Of a stretch of DNA of 64,000 nucleotides, positions 14,151 to 48,545 are shown one piece after another. Positions within the stretch are counted from its first letter, which is position 1. The number at the start of each line of letters is the position of its first letter. Origin of the DNA: Octopus vulgaris (taxonomy: Eukaryota). The position numbers were made by a program, and so were the translations under genes. The DNA is taken from positions 54,622,001-54,686,000 of the forward strand of contig OX597820.1 in assembly GCA_951406725.2 (NCBI GenBank). The letters are read 5' to 3'. The notes under the pieces are model-generated. The model was not told where the DNA came from, did not search any database, and worked only from the letters and a program-made list of their open reading frames with translations.

Positions 14151-17016
14151 CGGTTACAGTCTATCGATGGAGACTATGTGTTGTTGTCCGCCAATTAGGA
14201 GTTGGAATGTTTTAACTCTCGGATTTATGACTTGATATGGACCATCGTAGGGTGACTGGAGGGATTTTCGTCGTGTGTCACGTCGAACGAACACAAAGTT
14301 AGCCGTGCGGAGGTCATCTGGTATGGATGACCTGGGTGTACCGTGTGTTGACATGGGAACAGAGCGCAACTGGCCCACGCTGTTTCTCAGTTGAGCGAGG
14401 TACCTTTTGACATCCGGGTCTGACTTCGTATTCGGAAGGAACTCTCCTGGCACTGTAAGAGAGGTACCGTACACCATTTCCGCGGAAGAAGTGTTGAGAT
14501 TTTCTTTTGGGGCGGTGCGGATTCCCATCATCACCCATGGGAGTTGGTCAATAGAATTTGGCCCATTAAGTCTGGTTGTCAAGGATTCCTTCAGGCGGCA
14601 GTAAAATCTCTCCACTAATCCGTTGGCCTGTGGGTGGTAGGCTGCTGTGTGGTTCATTGTGATTTCAAACAGGTCACACATGTCATTCCATAGCTTTGAG
14701 GTGAATTGTGGACCCCGACTGGATGAGATGCTGTCTGGGACACCGAAACTGGCGACTCAGTTTGCGATGAAGGCTCTGCTGACTTCTTGTGTTTCCATGC
14801 TGCAGAGAAGGATAGCCTCAGGCCAACTGGTGTACCAAGATCAGTAGTTACGAGCAACCCTGTGAAGGTGGTAGGAGGCCGACAAGGTCGATGTTGACAT
14901 AGTTGAATCCAGCCTGAGGTGGTTCATAGTTGCCAAGGGGTGTTTTGGTCTGTTGATGAACCTTGGCTTGTTGACAGGGGATGCAGGTCCTGATCCAGTC
15001 CCCGGTTTGCTTGGCCATACCGTGCCAGATAAATTTGCTTGACAGCAGCTGCTGTGTGGCTTTGGTACATGAGTGGGAAAGTCTGTGAATGACGTCGAAA
15101 ACTTTCTTGCGCCAGGCTGATGGGACGATCGGTCGTGACTTCCCAGTGGATACGTCACACAGTAGGGATGTGCCGTTAGAGCCAAAGTGTACGTCCTGCA
15201 AGGCAAGTGATGTGATGGCAGTGCGGTATGCCCTGATCTTGTCATCTGTCTGTTGAGTTGCAGCCATATCTTCGTAATCCAAGCCTTCCGTTATTGGTGC
15301 TAGGTAGGTGTGAGAGCAGGTAGGAGCACGAGAATCGGCAACTGGGTTGCTCTTGCCGGCTATGTGTTGGATGTCTGTAGTGTACTCAGAAATGGTCGAC
15401 AGCTGTCGTTGCTGACGTGCAGACCAAGGCTCCGCGAGCTTGCTCATAGCAAAGGTGAGTGGTTTGTGATCCGTGAATACTGTAAATATGTGGCCTTCAA
15501 GGAAATAGCGAAAGTGGCGGACACCTAGATGGACAGCCAGTAGTTCCCTGTCAAAAGCACTCTATTTCTGTTCAGGGGGTCATAGTTATCGGCTGAAGAA
15601 AGCGAGCGGTCGCTACTGGCTGATGATATGTTGTTCCAAAATGCCTCAATGGCTGTGTCGGATGCATCACCTGTGAGTGCCGTCTATGTTGACATATGAT
15701 GATGGGACAGCATGGTTGCGTGAGCCAGGGCTTGTTTTGTGGATTCAAAGGCTGAAGTCATTGTACTATCCCACTCTACCTGTCTTTCTGAGCCCTCTTT
15801 CGACAGTGATTTATTTAGGAGTCTCATTACTCTTGCTGCAGAAGGGATGAAGCGATGGTAAAAGTTTACCATGCCCACAAATTAGTGTAGAGCCTTGCTT
15901 GTGATCGGATATGGAAAGGATAGGATAGTTTTCACTTTTCTGGCTGGGATGTAGCGCCGGCACTTGTGATTCGATGTCCCAAGATGTCGATTTCTGTCGC
16001 ACCAAAAACGCACTTGGTGGAGTTGATTACTAAACCATACTGTTCCAGCCTATCAAAAAGAGTCACTAGGTACTTCTTATGTAGCTCCGCGTTTTGGCTT
16101 GCAATAAGGATATCATCTAAGTATGCAAAGACAAAATCGAGACCTCTGCACACAGTGTCCATCAGGTGTTGGAAGGATTGTGCTGCGTTTTTCAATCCAA
16201 AGAGTGTACATAGGAATTCGTACAAACCGAAAGGAGCGATCACAGCGGTTTTCGGTACATCGTCGTCTTGTACTGTATTTGGTGGTATCCCCGGATGAGG
16301 TCAACCTTCGAGAAAACCGAGCACCCGGCTAGCTGGACTAAGAAATCCTGTATGGGTGGAGAGGGGTAGCAGCTAGGTGTCGTATCTGCGTTGAGGCGGC
16401 GGTAATCTCCCCGGGGTCGATAACCTCAGTTGGATTTGGGGGCCACATGCAGGGGTGACGACCAAGGACTGCTTGATCGGCGAACTATGCCCAATGCTTC
16501 CATATTGTCGGACTTGGCCTTCGCGATTGTAAGTTTGGTAATAGACGACGTGCGCGGCTGTACACAGGGGCGGTGGTGGAGGTGTGGTGTGTCACTCTGT
16601 AGAGGGCTGTAGGTTTGGAGAGTGTCGGAGTGGTGAGATTGGGACGACTTACAAGAAGATTCAAGAATTCGTTCTTGGTCTGTGGGACGGTTGCTATGCT
16701 GGGGGGCGGCATGTGTAGATGTTGCAAGAGACACGGAAGCGTATGTGCTGTTGTCGAGGAAAGTCTGCACCGATTATGGGCTGATGGACATCGGCGATGG
16801 TGAATACCCATGTTCATTTTGCGATCCGATGTTGAGAGAAAGGATGTGACGACCGTATGCCTCGATTGTGGACCCGTTGGCGGCTGTTAAAGTTTGGCTC
16901 CGCTTTCCGTGACGGAGATCCACTGCCGACGCCGGAATCACCCTACTTCTGCTCCTGTGTCGATTAGGAACCTGCGTCCGGAGCTCCGATCGCGGACATA
17001 GAAGAGCAAACAAACT

Positions 17017-17900: not shown

Positions 17901-18995
17901 TATTGGGGTTGTCAACTAAGTTCCCGCCGTTTTATAAAATTTTGGAATTTATAGCGTTTTTTTAATTGGAATCTATTTTTTTCGAAAATTCCTTTTTGAA
18001 TCATTTTGGAATCTATTTTGTTTTGTTTTGTTTTTTTTGTTTTTTTCTGGTTAATTTTAGTTAATTTTTGTTTATTTTTCAGATCATTAAAATGGAATGT
18101 TAACTTAAGAAAAACGAACGTTTTCGACTCCTCCTTTTTGCTTTTAATCAAGGTTCTAAGGTCGCAAAAGCTGCTCGTCACATTTGTGCTATGAATGGAG
18201 AGGGTGCCATAGCTGAAATCACCACTTGTGATTGATATGCCTAGTTCAAAAATGGCAATTTTGACCTCAAAGACGCACCTCGTTCTGGTCGTCCAGTTGA
18301 GTTCGATGAAGAGCGATTAAACCAACTTTTGCACGAAAATTCTCGTCAAATAACAAGGGAAATAGCAGATAAAATGAAATGCCCCCACACTGCTATAGAG
18401 AAACATCTTCACTCGATGGGAAAGGTTCAGAAGTATGGAGCATGGGTTTCGGATGCTTTAAGTGACAACAACAAAAACCAACGAGCCACAGTCTCCGCTG
18501 GTTTGCTTACTCGTCACCGCTCAACTCATGGACACAAGCGATGTTCAACAGATGGAACGACTCAACACGGCTATTCAAGAGAAAAAAACCTAATCGGCAG
18601 CATGGAGTTCTTCTGCTGCATGACAACGCCCCCCTTCATATCGCCAATATGACCAATGAAGCCATTGAAACGCATGGCTGGGAAGTGCTGCCACACTCGC
18701 CGTACTCTCCTGATTTGGCACCAACGGATTCCCACCTCTTCCGATCTCTTTCAAATGCTATATGCGGAGTTTCGTTCAATACTGATGCAGAATTGAGAGC
18801 TTAGTTGGATCAATTTTTCGAGTCGAAATCGGATGATTTCTACCAACGATGTATTGAAAATCTTGTTGAACGTTGGAAAGAAGTTGTAAACAACAAGGGT
18901 GAATACATTACTGATTAATTAGTTGTTATTTTTTATTAAACCTTTTTAAAAATTTTAATTTTTAAAAACGGCGGGAACTTACTTGCCAACCCAAT
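17901..18995 (+). mobile_element. Mariner element with internal deletion and stops
   Basis: TIRs TATTGGGGTTGTCAACTAAGTTCCCGCCGTTTT / AAAACGGCGGGAACTTACTTGCCAACCCAATA; motifs KYGAWV, LLLHDNAPLH, HSPYSPDLAPTDSHLFRSL. Confidence 0.93.
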
Positions 18996-41462: not shown

Positions 41463-41510
41463 TGTATATGTATATATACATACATACATCCATACATACA
41501 CTCACATAGG

Positions 41511-41591
<81 letters not shown>

Positions 41592-41992
41592 GTTCATGAT
41601 ATAACATGTTCTATAATGAATCCTGACGTTAGGCCAAGCGATATTCGTACAGGAAATAAAATATGTTGTATGTGTGTAGATAGAAAGAAAGAAAGAAAGA
41701 GAAAAGAAAAAAAGAAGGAAAGAAAGAAAGAAAGAAAATGAATGAGAAAATGTAGACAGAGTATGAAGAATGAATAATAGAAGAATGCCAGAATAAGAAA
41801 AACATTAGCGCGAAAAATTATGAGGATAGAAAGGATATGTGTGTGCGTGTGCGAGTGTGTGTAAGTGTCATAAATTAACACCCACTTACATGTTCCCTAA
41901 ACAAACACACACACACACGTACACACACACACATACACATACACACATGTATATCACATAAGTATGTATAAATTTTATTTTTGGGTGAGACA

Positions 41993-42035
41993 CCAATTGG
42001 CCAATCAGTTAAAAGGCTTTCATGTTATTGCATCA
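41993..42035 (+). promoter_or_regulatory. ATF4 proximal promoter elements: CCAAT cluster and C/EBP-ATF response element (CARE/AARE)
   Basis: CCAATTGGCCAAT at 41993-42005; ATTGCATCA at 42027-42035 (TGATGCAAT on -). Confidence 0.55.
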
Positions 42036-42222
42036 GCCTGCATACATAACACCGATATAAACACGCGAAAACAAATAGTGCCAAATATATTACTCTATTT
42101 TACAACTTAAAAACTTGTACTTTTGTTGTTATTTTGTAATTATAATAATTGATTAGTTAATTTTTGAGAAATTTTGGTGTCTTTTGTAGAAATTTTCAAT
42201 ATCACGAAAATTTGGATCTAGC

Positions 42223-42229
42223 TATATAA
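42223..42229 (+). promoter_or_regulatory. TATA box of the predicted ATF4 promoter
   Basis: TATATAA about 30 nt upstream of an Inr-like TTCACT (~42256) and the uORF-bearing exon. Confidence 0.55.
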
Positions 42230-42254
42230 GTAAGACGTCGCACTAATTTCACCA

Positions 42255-42356
42255 CTTCACTGCCTACATTGTCATTAACAAGTTTGCTCCAAAGATGTCT
42301 CACTAATTTCTTCTGTAGCAACTTTCTAGTTGCGAAGTTTAGCTTTGCACAATGGC
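42255..42356 (+). other. ATF4: Predicted ATF4 5' leader exon 1, carrying uORF1 and the start of uORF2
   Basis: ATG TCT CAC TAA at 42295-42306; acaATGGC at 42352-42356 followed by donor GTAAGT at 42357; the transcription start is approximate. Confidence 0.7.
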
Positions 42357-45300
42357 GTAAGTAGTTTTTTATTATTATTTTTCACACTCATATGTTGTAT
42401 TATGAACAAAAGGCGATAATAATACATTAAAATTGAATATTTTGCTTCGTTGATCTTCCTGTTCGGCGATCTTAAACATAGTATAATCTCATTACCACCC
42501 GAGCGCGCTATTGTAATTAAGACATTACGTGGCAGAATCTATAGAACAAAGGACGAAATGCCTCGCGATATTCTTTTAATGTATTTTGATTTCAAATTCT
42601 ACCGTTTGATCTAGATATTAACCCTGTGATCATATTTGCCTCTGCTATTGATTCGCTCCACCCCCACCCTATCGTTGTTCACAGCAACCAATGTCCGATT
42701 AAATTTATGAACATCCAGAGTAGATTTCTTGGACGAGAACTTAACAAATACGATGACCTATATAAATCGCCTTTTAATATATAATAAAAATGATCAAGAA
42801 TTATCGATTTGTCTACTTTGACATTTTCATTTTCACCTCGAAATCGTTTTCTAGTACAGTTAAAATGTATGGTCCTTATGATTCTGAAATCAAACAAACT
42901 CGCCCCGCCAAAAAATGCTTTGCTTATTTTATTTTCCTTCCTTAAAATGGTTGTATATTTACAGGTTCGAAAATCTATGTAAAAAAAAAAAAAAAAAACA
43001 ACTTCCTAATTTCATAAAATATCTCTTCAGCATTCCGATGTTCCTTCTTACATTCCCGTGTTTCTCCGTCTTTTTTTTATTTCTTTATTAATTCTAATTC
43101 TCGAGAAATTCTCTATAGTATTTTCATTAAATTTCTTCATATCTCTGTGTGTGTGCGCGTGTGGAAAATCGTGTGAAACGTACAGGTTAATGTCCTGTGA
43201 TACTGGCTTTCAGTAATGCAGACGAGCTGATTTGGGTTAAACTGGTAGAGTTACTTGCTTTGCACACGTGTCGTTCCTGCGAAGTTAATGACTTCATTGC
43301 GGCTATCGCTTTGTTAGCCATGCGCATGATTTTTTTTTTTTTTTTTGTGGTTGGGGGCTCAATAAATTAATCTAGTTGTCGATAAAATCTAAGAATGGTT
43401 ATCAATATTCGTTTAATGTTCAGCTAGTGCTTGTCTGGATGATTTTTGAGGAAGCTTTTTATATTCTGTTTGTGTGTATGGGATTGGCCTTTCTGGGTTA
43501 TAAATGCGTTTTAATCTCCTGTTCATAAAAATCCAAGAATAGACGTAAATAATGGCCTGAAAATATGGATTTTAATATAAAGCACCTAGGATCTGAGGGA
43601 GCCTCTTGAGGGTCATTCGACTTGCTTGAAATAACCAAATCTCGCTCAGCCGTTTAAAAAAAGGGGACATACTGAATGGTGTGGTTTTGATCTATGCTCT
43701 GTTCGATTAAGGTTTAATCTACAAAGTCTTTAGGTGATCATTTGATCTGCTAGAAATAATAGCCAACGCTATTATTTCTATCATACTTAAAAATCGGAAT
43801 GACAATTTGCTTGAACCCTTTGAAAAGATAGTTTCGAATGGACTGCTTTTAGTCTTCGCATTTACTGAGCCGAATTAACTAGGCTAATACAACTATAGTC
43901 TTTGGTTTTTATTATACATGATGTGCTTATATAATGAATGCTGAATTAAGATAATTTTAAAACAATGTGTAATTACTATAAAAGGGAAACAAAGTGGAAT
44001 GCGAAGCCCGCCTAGTGGTATGTCAGTATGAAATCGCGTACCGCCATTTTTTTTTTTTTTATTCTGATTTAATCGTAATCTACTGCATCTTAAAGTTATT
44101 GTCGGAAATTTCATCTAAAAAATAGCAATTTTTTTCTAAAAGAAAGTCGAGGGACACACTTGTATGGATATACCATACCTGTATTATATGTGGCTACGTC
44201 ACATGCGGTAGGACAGGCTCCATGACCTTTGCAAAAGAAGCTCAGTTCATTGATTATATACTCGAAGCGGAGAGGCCTGATACATAGTGCTTGCAATTAG
44301 AGTATATTCCGCCGAAGCTATTCCAAGTAGCAGTGTTAAGCCGGGCGACGGACTAAATCTGACACTTACGAGCAATTTAAGATTTCTTCTGAATGCGATC
44401 AAACCTGGAACAACACAATTGGGAAGCATACTAATTAAACGATACAGTCATGCTTGTATCTATTTTGCACTTTGTAAAGACAGTCAATTTCATTAGATAT
44501 TGTTATTCAGTTGCAGTCAACGAGCACACCTTATCTTAAAAACGGAAATATATATTGGACGTCATCTTGAATAGCATTTCTGAAAATTTAGCTTGGATGA
44601 AATACTAAGGCATATGTCTACTTAAGGAGATAAGTAATCTGGGACCAAACTAAAGTAATAAAGTACAATAAATGAAATGAAACAATCTTAATTCCGATCT
44701 TCGCATGTATAATAAATGTTATGATCGCCTCCCTCTCTCATTACACTTGAGAATATATTTAGACACGTGTAATTGTATAATATCTAGTGTGTGATTTAGG
44801 CCAACTAGCTCAAATAACGTTGGATATCATCTAATAATACCAAAAAGCTGTTTGGTTCTGAAAATAATGGGTTCTCTGACTTGAATGGAATGTTTTGTTC
44901 ATCATTCAATATGGAGATGGCGGGGGAGGTAGTACGCGTGTTTGGTTTATATTTAACTTTACTGACAAGATAGCGTGTGTGTGTGTTTCGCCAATGATAA
45001 GGTAGCCTACGCTGTGAAATAATGTTAAAAAGCTCACTTTGCGACCACGTAGTTCCGGGTTCAGTCCCTCTGCCCGCTACCTTGGGAAAGTGTCTTCTGC
45101 TACAGAGTGAATTTGGTAGACGGAAACTGTATGGAAGCTCGTGAATAGATGCATATGCTTGCTTACCCCCTGCCGCTTGAAAACCGGTGTTGGTTTGTTT
45201 ACGTCTCCTTAACTTGGCGGTTCGGCAAAAAATCGATAGAATAATTACTGGGGTCGATTTATTGGATTAAAAAAATATATCTTCAAAGTGCTCCATGTCA

Positions 45301-45576
45301 GATAATTTCGTAGCAATGATGCTGATATTTCTCTCAATAGTGTCGTTGATATATAAGCGGTGTATCATGACGTTGACTGCTGACTATCGACGTGTCTTTT
45401 TAATTATTCCTTACCGTATTGTGACGACGCTTGCAACGTGTTGATATGTCTTTTAACGAAGACACTACGTTAGCAAAAAACACTTTTGACTAAAAACAAA
45501 AATCCAACAAAGGAACCTTGACGTGGCTCCCGTTAATAAGCGTAAGACATCACCGTATTTTGTGTTTAGCTTGCAG

Positions 45577-45806
45577 GACTCTTCTCAAGAGTAGCTTCCC
45601 TTTGGCCATATTGTTAATTACATTGCATCTGCTTCCAATCGAGAAAAATTGTTCCGTTGCAAACCACTCTTTGAAGATTTGCCGATTCTTTATAGAACTT
45701 CCCTCCCCATCTGATATTGTTGTTTCCTAAATAGTGATTCGAACATGTTTCCCAATTGCAATGTTAGCTGGTTTAGTAAAATATTTCCCGTCTGGCATCA
45801 CTGGAG
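45577..45806 (+). other. Candidate alternative 5' leader exon of ATF4
   Basis: Acceptor TTGCAG at 45571-45576 and strong donor GAG|GTGAGT at 45807; contains uATGs at 45745 and 45761. Confidence 0.4.
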
Positions 45807-46048
45807 GTGAGTACATTCATTAAACTTGTGTAATTGTATTGGTTTTTATTTATTAGTGTTCTTAGGAAACTCTGTAAATCTTCATAGGTAAAATGTTTGC
45901 AGGATCGGATTGCAAGAGAAAGATTTTCTTTTTAATGTTGTCATTGCATTGTTTTATATCATGGTTTATTCAGACTGACTTTTTCTCTGTTGCAGGTCTC
46001 TCCAATATGTTTGCGTTTTGGCATTTGCCACCGAAATATCTCATATAG

Positions 46049-46220
46049 ATGATAACCGAAAGAAACATGGATATGGAACTGAACGATTCCGGACTCGACT
46101 GGTTGGGCGAGGGAAGACAGGGTATGAGTTTGATGAAAGGTGACGTAATGGACATCGGTACTTTTGTTGATTCTTTGTCAGATCCAAAATCCTTTCCTGA
46201 CGAAAGGGCGAATGACTTAG
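46049..46220 (+). CDS. ATF4: ATF4, first coding exon (exon begins at 45996)
   Basis: Acceptor TTTTCTCTGTTGCAG ends at 45995; MITERNMDMELNDSGLDWLG...; donor TTAG|GTAAGT at 46221; phase 1 joins the next exon in frame (G+AT=Asp). Confidence 0.8.
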
Positions 46221-46794
46221 GTAAGTTCTTTAGACCAACTGCTCAACTGTTGTAACAAACAATGCAAGAAATTCAGACTTTGACATAATTGTTTTGGCTT
46301 AAAAGATGTTAATTATAATTGTGAATTTTTTGTCTTCTGTTAATGTAATAAAATTTACAGCTCACTTAAAATAATTTGAGATAGGATAATTGCACATAGC
46401 TTGAATGCTATTGAATTTGGCATGATAGTTTAAAAGATAATTGCATTGATCATTCAGGGAAGAGTTTTCAGTTTAGCTAGACTTTCAGCAAAGCTTACTT
46501 GCAAACATTAGTTGGGTTAAATAGAATTTATAGAAAAGCACTAAAGCGATTAAAATACAGTTAAGTATCTGCTAACATAGTATATTCTTTACTTAGTTTC
46601 TTAAACAAGATCGAGTTGTATTCATAGAAGCTTTGCTTTATTGGTCAGTACTGATGCTATTCATTCCTCTATATGGATACTTGTCTAGCTGTCAGTCTCT
46701 TAATTAGTATTAGGTTCTTATCTTTAAATAAAATTGCTCTTTTATTCACTGTAATGTTACATGCTCTCACACTCTTTTCTTTCTTTCTTTACAG

Positions 46795-47741
46795 ATATAT
46801 TTCTTTATGATAAAGAAACTTTACCGTCTGATTTTACTGCCTCTGTCAACAATGTCAGTGGCAGAAATATGTATCCTCTGGGTGATTCTTTCCTTGACTA
46901 CTCATCTCTTCAACTGAGCCAGGATGTGGAAACATTTGCATCCTTTGATCACCAAAGCTATGAAGAACTTATGTCTTCACCATTATCATGCCATGATTTA
47001 GAAAGCGTGCTTAATCCTGATGTGACAACAAATGACCTTCAGGCCAAGCCAGTACAGCCCTGCACAGATTTGCCACATCAAGTCAGTGAAGATGGGCTGT
47101 TGGCAAGCAGCGTGGGATTAGTGAAAAGTGACAGTGACAGTTCAGATGCCTTTTCATCTTCACTTGGCCATTCAGGAATTGCAAATACTCTTTCACCTTC
47201 ATCTAGCGATTCTGGAACTGACTCCTATTATCTTGATAGTTCTCCTTCAAGCACCACTGGCTTCTCATCTCAGCCTGGCTCTCCCTTTTCACTAGAGATA
47301 CTTCCCTCTCCCTTCCCACAACCAGAGATACTCTCAGACTCTCCACAGCCAGAAAAGTTTCAGGGAAAAGTTAAGGGATCTAAGTCGTGTCGTACAAAGA
47401 ATAACAACCGCCACAGTCCATATAATTCAGACAGCAAAAGTACCGAGTCACCATCATTACCGCCATCATCACCGTTGCCGTACGATAGCACTGCAGGGGT
47501 AGAACAGCAACAGCTCAGCAAGAAAGAACGGAAGAGGCTCCAGAACAAAAACGCTGCCATTCGGTATCGGCAGAAGATGAAAGCTGAGGCCAAGGTAAGA
47601 CTTGGTGAAGAGGAAGAACTGTTAAAAGAGAACGCAAAATTGAAAGAAAAGGTTGAAGACTTGGAAAGAGAGATCAGGTATGTGGCTAACTTGATGGAAG
47701 AGGTGAAGAAAGCAAGGTCAAAATCATCTCAGCACTGTTAG
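46795..47741 (+). CDS. ATF4: ATF4 bZIP transcription factor, last coding exon
   Basis: Acceptor TTCTTTACAG; Ser/Pro-rich region, DSGTDS degron-like motif and C-terminal bZIP KKERKRLQNKNAAIRYRQK...EIRYVANLMEEVKKAR closely matching ATF4/ATF5. Confidence 0.93.
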
Positions 47742-48096
47742 AGCTTTCTGCCATCACAACCAACAGCCACTGCACCCTGCGCTGTGCTAGAAACTACTAT
47801 GATCACATTAGTTTGGTGTATTTGTTGTTTTTATTATTATTATTATTTATGTGAAACTTTGCTTTGTTAAAATAAATTAGTAGTCATTGTGAACATTACA
47901 TATATGCTAGTGGACCATTTTATTTTGTTTTCATCTCCTTTTGGTAACGGTTCAACTAATTCACACCAATACTAATGTGCATTGTAAGAACTGAACATTA
48001 TACCCATTACTTAGTGAATTAAATTTTTTTTTCTCTCTCTCATCACTACTTAATATTCTATATTATTCATTTGTGTACTATGATATCATAAATAGG

Positions 48097-48102
48097 AATA
48101 AA
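48097..48102 (+). terminator. Probable ATF4 polyadenylation signal (alternative AATAAA at 47871-47876)
   Basis: AATAAA followed by a GT/T-rich tract at 48122-48142. Confidence 0.5.
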
Positions 48103-48226
48103 AGGCATTTATGTTAACAGATTGGCTGTCGTGGTTTTTTTGATAGCTGTTGAAAATCTTCATGTATTTGATGTTGGAAATAGAGCTTCAAAGGACAAAT
48201 TGTTATCTACGTTCTATGTGTTGTGT

Positions 48227-48545
48227 AGGCATAGGAGGGGATGTGTGGTAAGTAGCTTGCTGACGAACCACATGTTTCCGGGTTCAGTTCCACTGCGTGG
48301 CATCTTTGGCAAGTGTCTTCTACTATAGCCTTAGGCTGACCAAAGCCTTGTGAGTGAATTTGGTAGACAAACTGAAAGAAGCCTGTCATATATGTGTGTC
48401 TGTGTATGTCCACCCAACATCGCTTGACAACCGATGGTGGTGTGTTTACGTCCCCGTAACTTGGCAGTTCAGCAAAAGAGACCGATAGAATAAGTACTAG
48501 GCTTACAAAGAATGTCTCAGGGCCGATTTGCTCGACCAAAGGCTG
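48227..48545 (+). mobile_element. SINE family A copy
   Basis: Matches 20820-21270. Confidence 0.8.

What the first reader, a model, noticed from the sequence alone, without database searches (positions are those of the whole stretch)
42295..46143. Vertebrate-style ATF4 uORF switch reconstructed across a 3.6 kb intron
Seen: uORF1 is ATG TCT CAC TAA (42295-42306). A second ATG in good context (42352) is followed by GC|GTAAGT. Splicing to 45996 gives a 50-aa uORF2 (MASLQYVCVLAFATEISHIDDNRKKHGYGTERFRTRLVGRGKTGYEFDER*) that overlaps the ATF4 start out of frame and ends at 46141-46143. Known: a 3-codon uORF1 plus an overlapping inhibitory uORF2 is the eIF2alpha-P delayed-reinitiation mechanism of mammalian ATF4. 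Inference: the integrated stress response switch is conserved here. None of this appears in the ORF track.
Basis: partly seen in the sequence, partly recalled or inferred. Interest (0 to 1): 0.7.

Follow-up and report, generated by a model that had tools for sequence, protein, structure and literature searches.

The report
Octopus ATF4 stress-switch leader, ancient intron
The octopus gene for the stress factor ATF4 is spliced into an mRNA whose leader carries the same pair of small upstream reading frames that let animal cells make ATF4 under stress, so it likely works the same way; this is a known animal-wide switch, and the one fresh detail is an intron right after the second frame's start codon, where mammals have one too.

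Summary
Observation confirmed. The gene is Octopus vulgaris ATF4. The 42356>45996 GT-AG splice appears in 4 of 4 RNA-like runs from 4 studies. It builds a 3-codon uORF1 and a 50-codon uORF2 that overlaps the ATF4 start in the -1 frame. The likely mechanism is eIF2alpha-P delayed reinitiation; this is inferred, not measured. 'Vertebrate-style' is wrong: the paired uORFs are published as pan-metazoan, including Aplysia and Hydra (PMC4176352), and 6 of 6 other ATF4-like loci fetched here have them. The detail not found in my searches: intron 1 cuts uORF2 at ATG GC|GT. A distant animal's genomic contig (L002) has a predicted donor at the same place, and mammalian intron 1 is reported immediately after the uORF2 start codon (PMC3479206). 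That points to common descent of the whole switch. The vertebrate SL3 hairpin, start-stop element and GCG codon in uORF1 are absent. New member of a known kind; interest low to moderate.

The parts
41993..42005 (+). Clustered CCAAT boxes upstream of the likely promoter
   Evidence: sequence; function not tested
42027..42035 (-). C/EBP-ATF (CARE/AARE)-type site TGATGCAAT; possible autoregulation
   Evidence: only match in the window, where 3.5 are expected by chance; similar site beside a CCAAT box in L002; consensus recalled; lead only
42223..42229 (+). TATA-like box TATATAA
   Evidence: sequence
42252..42258 (+). Initiator-like element; predicted main start A42254, 31 nt after the first base of the TATA box
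   Evidence: sequence; X8's joined contig begins at 42254, but contigs cannot show a start and X1's contig runs upstream past 41956
42254..42356 (+). Exon 1 (5' end predicted, 3' end shown)
42295..42306 (+). uORF1, 3 codons (Met-Ser-His), -3 A context; predicted reinitiation-permissive
42307..42351 (+). 45-nt uORF1-uORF2 spacer
   Evidence: 45-54 nt in 6 other ATF4-like loci
42352..42356 (+). uORF2 first part: ATG GC, strong context (-3 A, +4 G), directly before the donor
42357..45995 (+). Intron 1, 3639 nt, GT..AG, phase 2 of uORF2 codon 2; holds 72 ATGs and a high-copy repeat near 44940-45260; if retained, uORF2 reads Met-Ala-stop
45996..46143 (+). uORF2 second part; 50 codons in all; -1 frame to ATF4; covers in-frame ATF4 ATGs 46049, 46067, 46073, 46124 and 46133
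46007..46048 (+). uORF3, 13 codons, nested in uORF2, in the ATF4 frame, -3 A context; stop abuts ATG 46049
   Evidence: nested ATF4-frame uORFs also in L002, L004 and L007
46049..46220 (+). ATF4 coding part of exon 2; annotated start 46049 has weak context, 46067 and 46073 strong context
46221..46794 (+). Intron 2, 574 nt, phase 1; junction 77 nt after the uORF2 stop
46795..47741 (+). ATF4 coding part of exon 3, with C-terminal bZIP at about 47517-47681; full protein 372 aa

Best explanation
This is the 5' leader of Octopus vulgaris ATF4, and splicing of a 3639-nt intron joins a 3-codon uORF1 and a 50-codon uORF2 that overlaps the ATF4 start out of frame, which likely makes ATF4 translation rise when eIF2alpha is phosphorylated. 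Shown: the gene, the splice, the three uORFs and their frames. Inferred from the mammalian mechanism (PMC2172506): ribosomes translate uORF1 and the 40S subunit resumes scanning. With plenty of ternary complex it reinitiates 45 nt later at uORF2 (or 61 nt later at uORF3) and runs past the ATF4 starts. With eIF2alpha-P and scarce ternary complex it scans past both and reinitiates 103-127 nt after uORF1, most likely at the strong-context ATG 46067. uORF3 would be a second trap that raises the stress threshold. Also inferred: termination at uORF2, 77 nt upstream of junction 2, or at uORF1, 50 nt upstream of junction 1, could mark the resting mRNA for nonsense-mediated decay, as proposed for mammals. 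The architecture, including the intron right after the uORF2 start codon, is most simply inherited from a common bilaterian ancestor.
For: Gene: 100% match to annotated O. vulgaris ATF4. Splice in 4 of 4 runs from 4 studies; uORF1 on the same contig in 3 of 4. Leader architecture arises in 1.8% of shuffles, and the -1 frame stays open this far in 6% of synonymous recodings; 6 codon positions avoid a stop-creating T, P = 0.025 by codon usage. 6 of 6 other ATF4-like loci (L001-L005, L007) have a 3-codon uORF plus a -1-frame overlapping uORF, with spacers of 45-54 nt; the seventh locus, L006, is a non-ATF4-like bZIP without this pattern. Published as conserved across metazoa except nematodes, with a third short uORF often overlapping uORF2 (PMC4176352). 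Mutational proof in mouse (PMC2172506). Mammalian intron 1 lies immediately after the uORF2 start codon (PMC3479206), and uORF2 begins ATG GCG in 8 of 8 mammals shown. A PERK protein is listed for Octopus bimaculoides (PMC9680061).
Against: No translation data: no ribosome profiling or reporter, and no test of eIF2alpha kinases in this species (no genome held). The 5' end is not fixed. X1's contig runs upstream past 41956, which would add a weak-context 12-codon uORF at 42022. In L001 and L002, further ATGs lie upstream of the 3-codon uORF. The spacer is half the mammalian one (45 versus 87 nt by my count). Vertebrate add-ons are absent: no SL3-like hairpin in the overlap (z +0.26), no start-stop, no GCG codon in uORF1. 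In human cells delayed reinitiation is not the sole control (10.1101/2023.07.12.548609). The two chance tests are modest (1.8%, 6%).
Confidence: 0.85

Rival explanations
1. The uORFs are real and conserved, but in octopus they mainly set a low constant ATF4 level by leaky scanning past three uATGs, or respond to another input such as eIF5-mimic 5MP, termination efficiency or NMD, rather than to eIF2alpha-P.
For: Short 45-nt spacer and extra uORF3 trap; no SL3, start-stop or GCG codon; 5MP and eRF3 routes are published (PMC4176352, PMC3479206).
Against: The same geometry and frame recur in 6 of 6 other ATF4-like loci with similar spacers. uORF1 has -3 A and uORF2 full Kozak context, which argues against heavy leaking.
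Confidence: 0.08
2. Promoter choice is the main switch: a longer leader from an upstream start adds the 12-codon uORF at 42022, or a shorter one lacks uORF1, so the two-uORF logic applies to only some transcripts.
For: X1's joined contig runs upstream to 41956 and beyond, while others begin at 42254, 42270 and about 42315.
Against: TATA box and initiator-like element are correctly spaced to give a start at 42254; 42022 has weak context; contig ends cannot show starts.
Confidence: 0.05
3. The arrangement is chance or an artefact of a hand-picked splice or a processed copy.
For: Short uORFs are common in AT-rich leaders; the shuffle tests give only 1.8% and 6%.
Against: The joint is seen in 4 studies; DNA-like runs read through the splice sites; the pattern recurs in 6 of 6 ATF4-like loci and in the literature.
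Confidence: 0.02

Closest known systems
Mammalian ATF4 uORF1/uORF2 delayed-reinitiation leader (PMC2172506; 10.1101/2023.07.12.548609; PMC3479206)
   Same: 3-codon uORF1; long uORF2 beginning ATG GCG and overlapping ATF4 in the -1 frame; several in-frame ATF4 AUGs inside the overlap; intron 1 directly after the uORF2 start codon; uORF1 in frame with uORF2 with an intervening stop.
   Different: Spacer 45 versus 87 nt; uORF2 50 versus 59 codons; extra nested uORF3; no start-stop, no SL3-like hairpin, no GCG codon in uORF1; uORF1 stop lies 50 nt, not about 90 nt, from junction 1; intron 1 is 3.6 kb.
Invertebrate ATF4 paired uORFs: Aplysia, Hydra, Tribolium, Drosophila crc (PMC4176352)
   Same: Short uORF1 plus long overlapping uORF2; a third short uORF overlapping uORF2 is reported as often found outside arthropods.
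   Different: No cephalopod appears in the passages I read (the figure and accession list were not visible), and the word intron does not occur in the main text. The second in-frame AUG in uORF2 seen in arthropods is absent here.
Yeast GCN4 uORF control (recalled; mentioned in PMC2172506)
   Same: Reinitiation after a short permissive uORF1, gated by ternary complex.
   Different: GCN4 uses four short non-overlapping uORFs and has no leader intron (recalled); the gene here is ATF4 by sequence.

Membership tests
ATF4 paired-uORF delayed-reinitiation leader | Main ORF is an ATF4 ortholog | tested here: met
   100% to annotated O. vulgaris ATF4; named hits are ATF4 of molluscs and fish; bZIP by Pfam, below the curated cut-off
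ATF4 paired-uORF delayed-reinitiation leader | uORF1 of 2-3 codons | tested here: met
   42295-42306
ATF4 paired-uORF delayed-reinitiation leader | uORF1 is the first efficient AUG on the mRNA | tested here: inconclusive
   True if the start is near 42254; X1's contig extends past weak-context ATG 42022
ATF4 paired-uORF delayed-reinitiation leader | uORF2 overlaps the ATF4 start out of frame (-1) | tested here: met
   95-nt overlap from 46049, 77 nt from 46067, on the RNA-supported splice
ATF4 paired-uORF delayed-reinitiation leader | Both uORFs and the ATF4 start lie on one spliced transcript | tested here: met
   3 of 4 joined contigs (X1, X8, X11) span uORF1 through exon 2
ATF4 paired-uORF delayed-reinitiation leader | Ribosomes reinitiate after uORF1, and ATF4 translation rises with eIF2alpha phosphorylation | not testable with these tools
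   Needs a reporter or ribosome profiling
ATF4 paired-uORF delayed-reinitiation leader | eIF2alpha kinases present in the organism | not tested
   No genome held; a PERK is listed for O. bimaculoides (PMC9680061)
Vertebrate-type ATF4 leader (human add-ons) | SL3 stem-loop in the uORF2/ATF4 overlap | tested here: not met
   Overlap folds no better than shuffles, z +0.26 and +0.35
Vertebrate-type ATF4 leader (human add-ons) | Start-stop element upstream of uORF1 | tested here: not met
   No ATG between 42023 and 42294
Vertebrate-type ATF4 leader (human add-ons) | DENR-dependent GCG codon in the 3-codon uORF (PMC7494916) | tested here: not met
   Codons are TCT CAC
Vertebrate-type ATF4 leader (human add-ons) | Intron 1 immediately after the uORF2 start codon (PMC3479206) | tested here: met
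   ATG GC|GTAAGT; the exact mammalian nucleotide was not visible in what I read

The most novel reading that the evidence does not exclude
The ATF4 switch has come down as one intact exon-intron unit from the common ancestor of molluscs and mammals. An intron at ATG GC|GT inside uORF2 has been held in place because it ties splicing and exon-junction-dependent decay to uORF translation. In both invertebrate genomic loci seen here the junction sits exactly 50 nt after the uORF1 stop, on the edge of the NMD rule. A TTTGC motif 30-39 nt after the uORF1 stop may be an unrecognised reinitiation element shared with mammals.
Probability: 0.3. Interest if true: 0.55.

Novelty: new member of a known kind. 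Interest (0 to 1): 0.3.

Why it matters
It confirms that octopus has the core cis-element of the integrated stress response and gives exact, RNA-supported coordinates for a reporter or ribosome-profiling test in a cephalopod. My searches for cephalopod ATF4 uORFs found no such description. The mechanism is not news. What would interest an evolution or translation specialist is the shared intron site inside uORF2 in octopus, a distant animal and mammals: it argues for descent rather than convergence of the switch, and it makes the proposed NMD coupling testable outside vertebrates.

Tried and rejected
No whole genome was held, so eIF2alpha kinases, 5MP and DENR were not looked up. No run was on record as RNA (no RNA holder listed); RNA status rests on the tool's guess and the spliced joints. 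A conserved hairpin in the uORF1-uORF2 spacer looked plausible by eye but was not significant: z -1.6 to +0.5 in 6 spacers, summed stem length P = 0.07. An SL3-like hairpin in the octopus overlap was rejected; L002 (z -2.8) and L001 (z -1.9) do fold there, L004 does not. No A-to-G or other difference was seen in exons 1-2 in the joined contigs of X1, X8 and X11 or in X19's exon-2 piece; contigs drop rare variants, so RNA editing of the uORFs is not excluded. One search was meant to show uORF conservation in runs labelled with other organisms, but these were about 99% alike and the difference table was cut, so it gave nothing on that. X19's contig starts at 46002 and did not test junction 1. 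No Rfam match in 41500-48500. No ATF4 relative in viral contigs. The metagenome scan covered 6 of 64 parts. L006 was left out of the ATF4 count as a non-ATF4-like bZIP. The animal group of L002 could not be fixed: atlas hits were arthropod-rich ATF4 clusters, the bZIP tree put it with teleosts (97/95), rejected cephalopod (p-AU 0.026) and did not reject mollusc (0.06). Earlier scan findings: nothing by words, place or sequence. Paper searches showed no listing on invertebrate conservation of the intron site; the library is open-access only.

Full report
OBSERVATION. Every coordinate in the finding is correct. uORF1 is 42295-42306. ATG 42352 is followed by GC|GTAAGT. Joined to the acceptor at 45996, the frame runs 50 codons to TGA 46141-46143. 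The splice is not just a reading of consensus sites: contigs from 4 of 4 runs, from 4 studies, join 42356 to 45996 with GT..AG ends, and all four also join intron 2, 46221-46794. In 3 of the 4 (X1, X8, X11) the joined contig also carries uORF1. These runs are RNA by the tool's guess. Three DNA-like runs have contigs that read unspliced through the donor (X16, X17) or the acceptor (X15, X16, X17), though that call's joint table was cut. The fourth run of that call, X19, joined intron 2 but began at 46002.

WHAT THE GENE IS. The last exon matches annotated Octopus vulgaris ATF4 at 100% (P0003, 372 aa), and the spliced frame from 46049 reproduces that protein. Pfam finds a C-terminal bZIP, below its curated cut-off. 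Five in-frame ATGs lie under uORF2. The annotated one, 46049, has weak context (-3 T, +4 A); 46067 and 46073 have strong context. Of four other full-length cephalopod-like proteins, two begin at the MITER position and two at the MDMEL position, so the true start is open; I favour 46067.

A third uATG at 46007 (-3 A) opens a 13-codon ORF nested in uORF2 but in the ATF4 frame; its TAG directly abuts ATG 46049. The promoter side shows TATATAA at 42223 and an initiator-like element with A at 42254, where X8's contig begins. Contigs cannot show starts, and X1's runs upstream past 41956, which would add a weak-context uORF at 42022.

CHANCE. In 20,000 dinucleotide shuffles of the 156-nt leader, 1.8% gave a short first uORF followed by an out-of-frame overlapping one. 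In 20,000 synonymous recodings of the ATF4 N-terminus, 6% kept the -1 frame open for 95 nt or more (median 17 nt), and six positions where a T-ending codon would close uORF2 all avoid it (P = 0.025). These are modest on their own; the comparative evidence is stronger.

RELATIVES. Scans with a 21-protein alignment returned 6 loci from metagenome contigs (6 of 64 parts scanned), 1 from prokaryote genomes and none from viral contigs. Six of the seven are ATF4-like; L006 is another bZIP and was left out. All 6 of 6 have a 3-codon uORF, a spacer of 45-54 nt and a longer uORF overlapping the main start in the -1 frame. In L001 and L002 further ATGs lie upstream of the 3-codon uORF, and their transcript starts are unknown. 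A nested uORF in the ATF4 frame occurs in 3 of 6 (L002, L004, L007). L002 is the only genomic locus. It has ATG GC|GTAAGT at its uORF2 start, the same 45-nt spacer, a predicted 776-nt intron, and a predicted phase-1 second intron as in octopus; its splices are predicted from sequence, not shown by RNA. Its protein matches octopus ATF4 only in the bZIP (52% over 69 aa). A 72-column bZIP tree groups it with teleosts (97/95), rejects a cephalopod placement (p-AU 0.026) and does not reject mollusc (0.06) (a larger tree also put it outside the molluscs). It is a distant animal of unresolved group.

MECHANISM. Shown: gene, splice, three uORFs, frames and distances. Inferred from mouse mutational work (PMC2172506, abstract and passages): after uORF1 the 40S subunit keeps scanning. 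With ample ternary complex it reinitiates at uORF2 (45 nt on) or uORF3 (61 nt on) and ATF4 is not made; under eIF2alpha phosphorylation it passes both and starts ATF4 103-127 nt after uORF1. uORF3 would be a second trap. Also inferred: the uORF2 stop lies 77 nt before junction 2 (101 nt in L002) and the uORF1 stop 50 nt before junction 1 (also 50 in L002), so the resting mRNA may be an NMD substrate as in mammals. Whether molluscan NMD depends on exon junctions is not known to me. If intron 1 were retained, uORF2 would shrink to Met-Ala-stop and 72 intronic ATGs would precede ATF4. I put the delayed-reinitiation reading at 0.85.

WHAT IS KNOWN. [quoted passage not shown] So the switch is not vertebrate-specific and uORF3 is of a known type. 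PMC3479206 (passages; supplementary file 4 read whole; file 1 not searchable) reports that mammalian intron 1 lies about 90 nt from the uORF1 stop, immediately downstream of the uORF2 initiation codon, and proposes it triggers NMD. Its alignment shows uORF2 starting ATG GCG in 8 of 8 mammals. The exact mammalian splice nucleotide was not visible; that it is the same phase is my recollection. PMC8933703 (passages and supplement passages) reports a weak intron-1 donor conserved in vertebrates and a regulated intron-retained form. 10.1101/2023.07.12.548609 (passages) gives the -1 frame, SL3 and the start-stop; PMC7494916 (passages) the DENR-dependent GCG codon. SL3, start-stop and GCG are all absent here. 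PMC6321046, PMC12839439, PMC13587735 and PMC9680061 were seen as passages only.

NOVELTY. The mechanism is known and this is a new member of that kind. Searches for ATF4 with uORF and octopus, or with cephalopod and integrated stress response, listed no paper describing it. Searches combining ATF4, uORF2 and intron terms listed none on invertebrate conservation of the intron site; the library holds open-access papers only and I judged most hits from listings. The shared intron site in octopus, L002 and mammals is therefore the one point that may be new. It rests on one RNA-confirmed locus, one predicted locus and one sentence in a paper. A weaker lead is TTTGC at +32 to +39 after the uORF1 stop in 4 of 6 spacers tested (null 1.5%, chosen after looking). 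It is absent from that position in L003 and L005, absent from L007, and visible at about +30 in the mammalian alignment. A shared spacer hairpin was tested and not supported.

VERDICT. Real, correctly read, and RNA-supported, but an expected feature of an animal ATF4 gene. Interest 0.3. The bolder reading, an ancestral intron held in place by coupling to uORF translation and NMD, has probability 0.3 and would deserve 0.55.

Noticed in passing
window 41993-42035; L002:545-553: A perfect C/EBP-ATF-type site near CCAAT boxes lies about 260 nt upstream of uORF1; L002 has a similar site beside a CCAAT box about 310 nt upstream. Possible conserved autoregulation of ATF4 transcription; single 9-mers are weak evidence.
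   Followed up: partly
window 42344-42348; L002:900-904; L004:82-86; L001:142-146: TTTGC lies 32-39 nt after the uORF1 stop in 4 of 6 spacers tested, and at about +30 in the mammalian alignment; post hoc null 1.5%.
   Followed up: partly
window 46046-46051: The uORF3 stop directly abuts the annotated ATF4 start (TAG ATG, same frame); readthrough would give an N-terminally extended ATF4.
   Followed up: no
L002:1820-1899; L001:215-282: These two distant animals have strong hairpins in the uORF2/ATF4 overlap (z -2.8 and -1.9), like human SL3, whereas octopus and L004 do not.
   Followed up: partly
L007:1-1029: A 1029-nt, low-coverage contig in an Alcanivorax quisquiliarum assembly is an intronless arthropod-like ATF4 sequence with paired uORFs; very likely animal contamination of a bacterial genome.
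   Followed up: partly
window 14154-16300 (-): Broken reading frames resembling LTR-retrotransposon pol (reverse transcriptase, RNase H, integrase), recognised by eye; not searched.
   Followed up: no
window 18245-18652 (+): Fragment resembling a mariner-type transposase, recognised by eye; not searched.
   Followed up: no
window 44940-45260 and 48200-48480: Copies of a very high-copy repeat, likely an octopus SINE, sit in intron 1 and downstream of the gene and dominate read depth there.
   Followed up: no
window 47871 and 48097: Two AATAAA signals after the stop codon; RNA-like contigs reach 48032-48119, so two 3' ends are possible.
   Followed up: no
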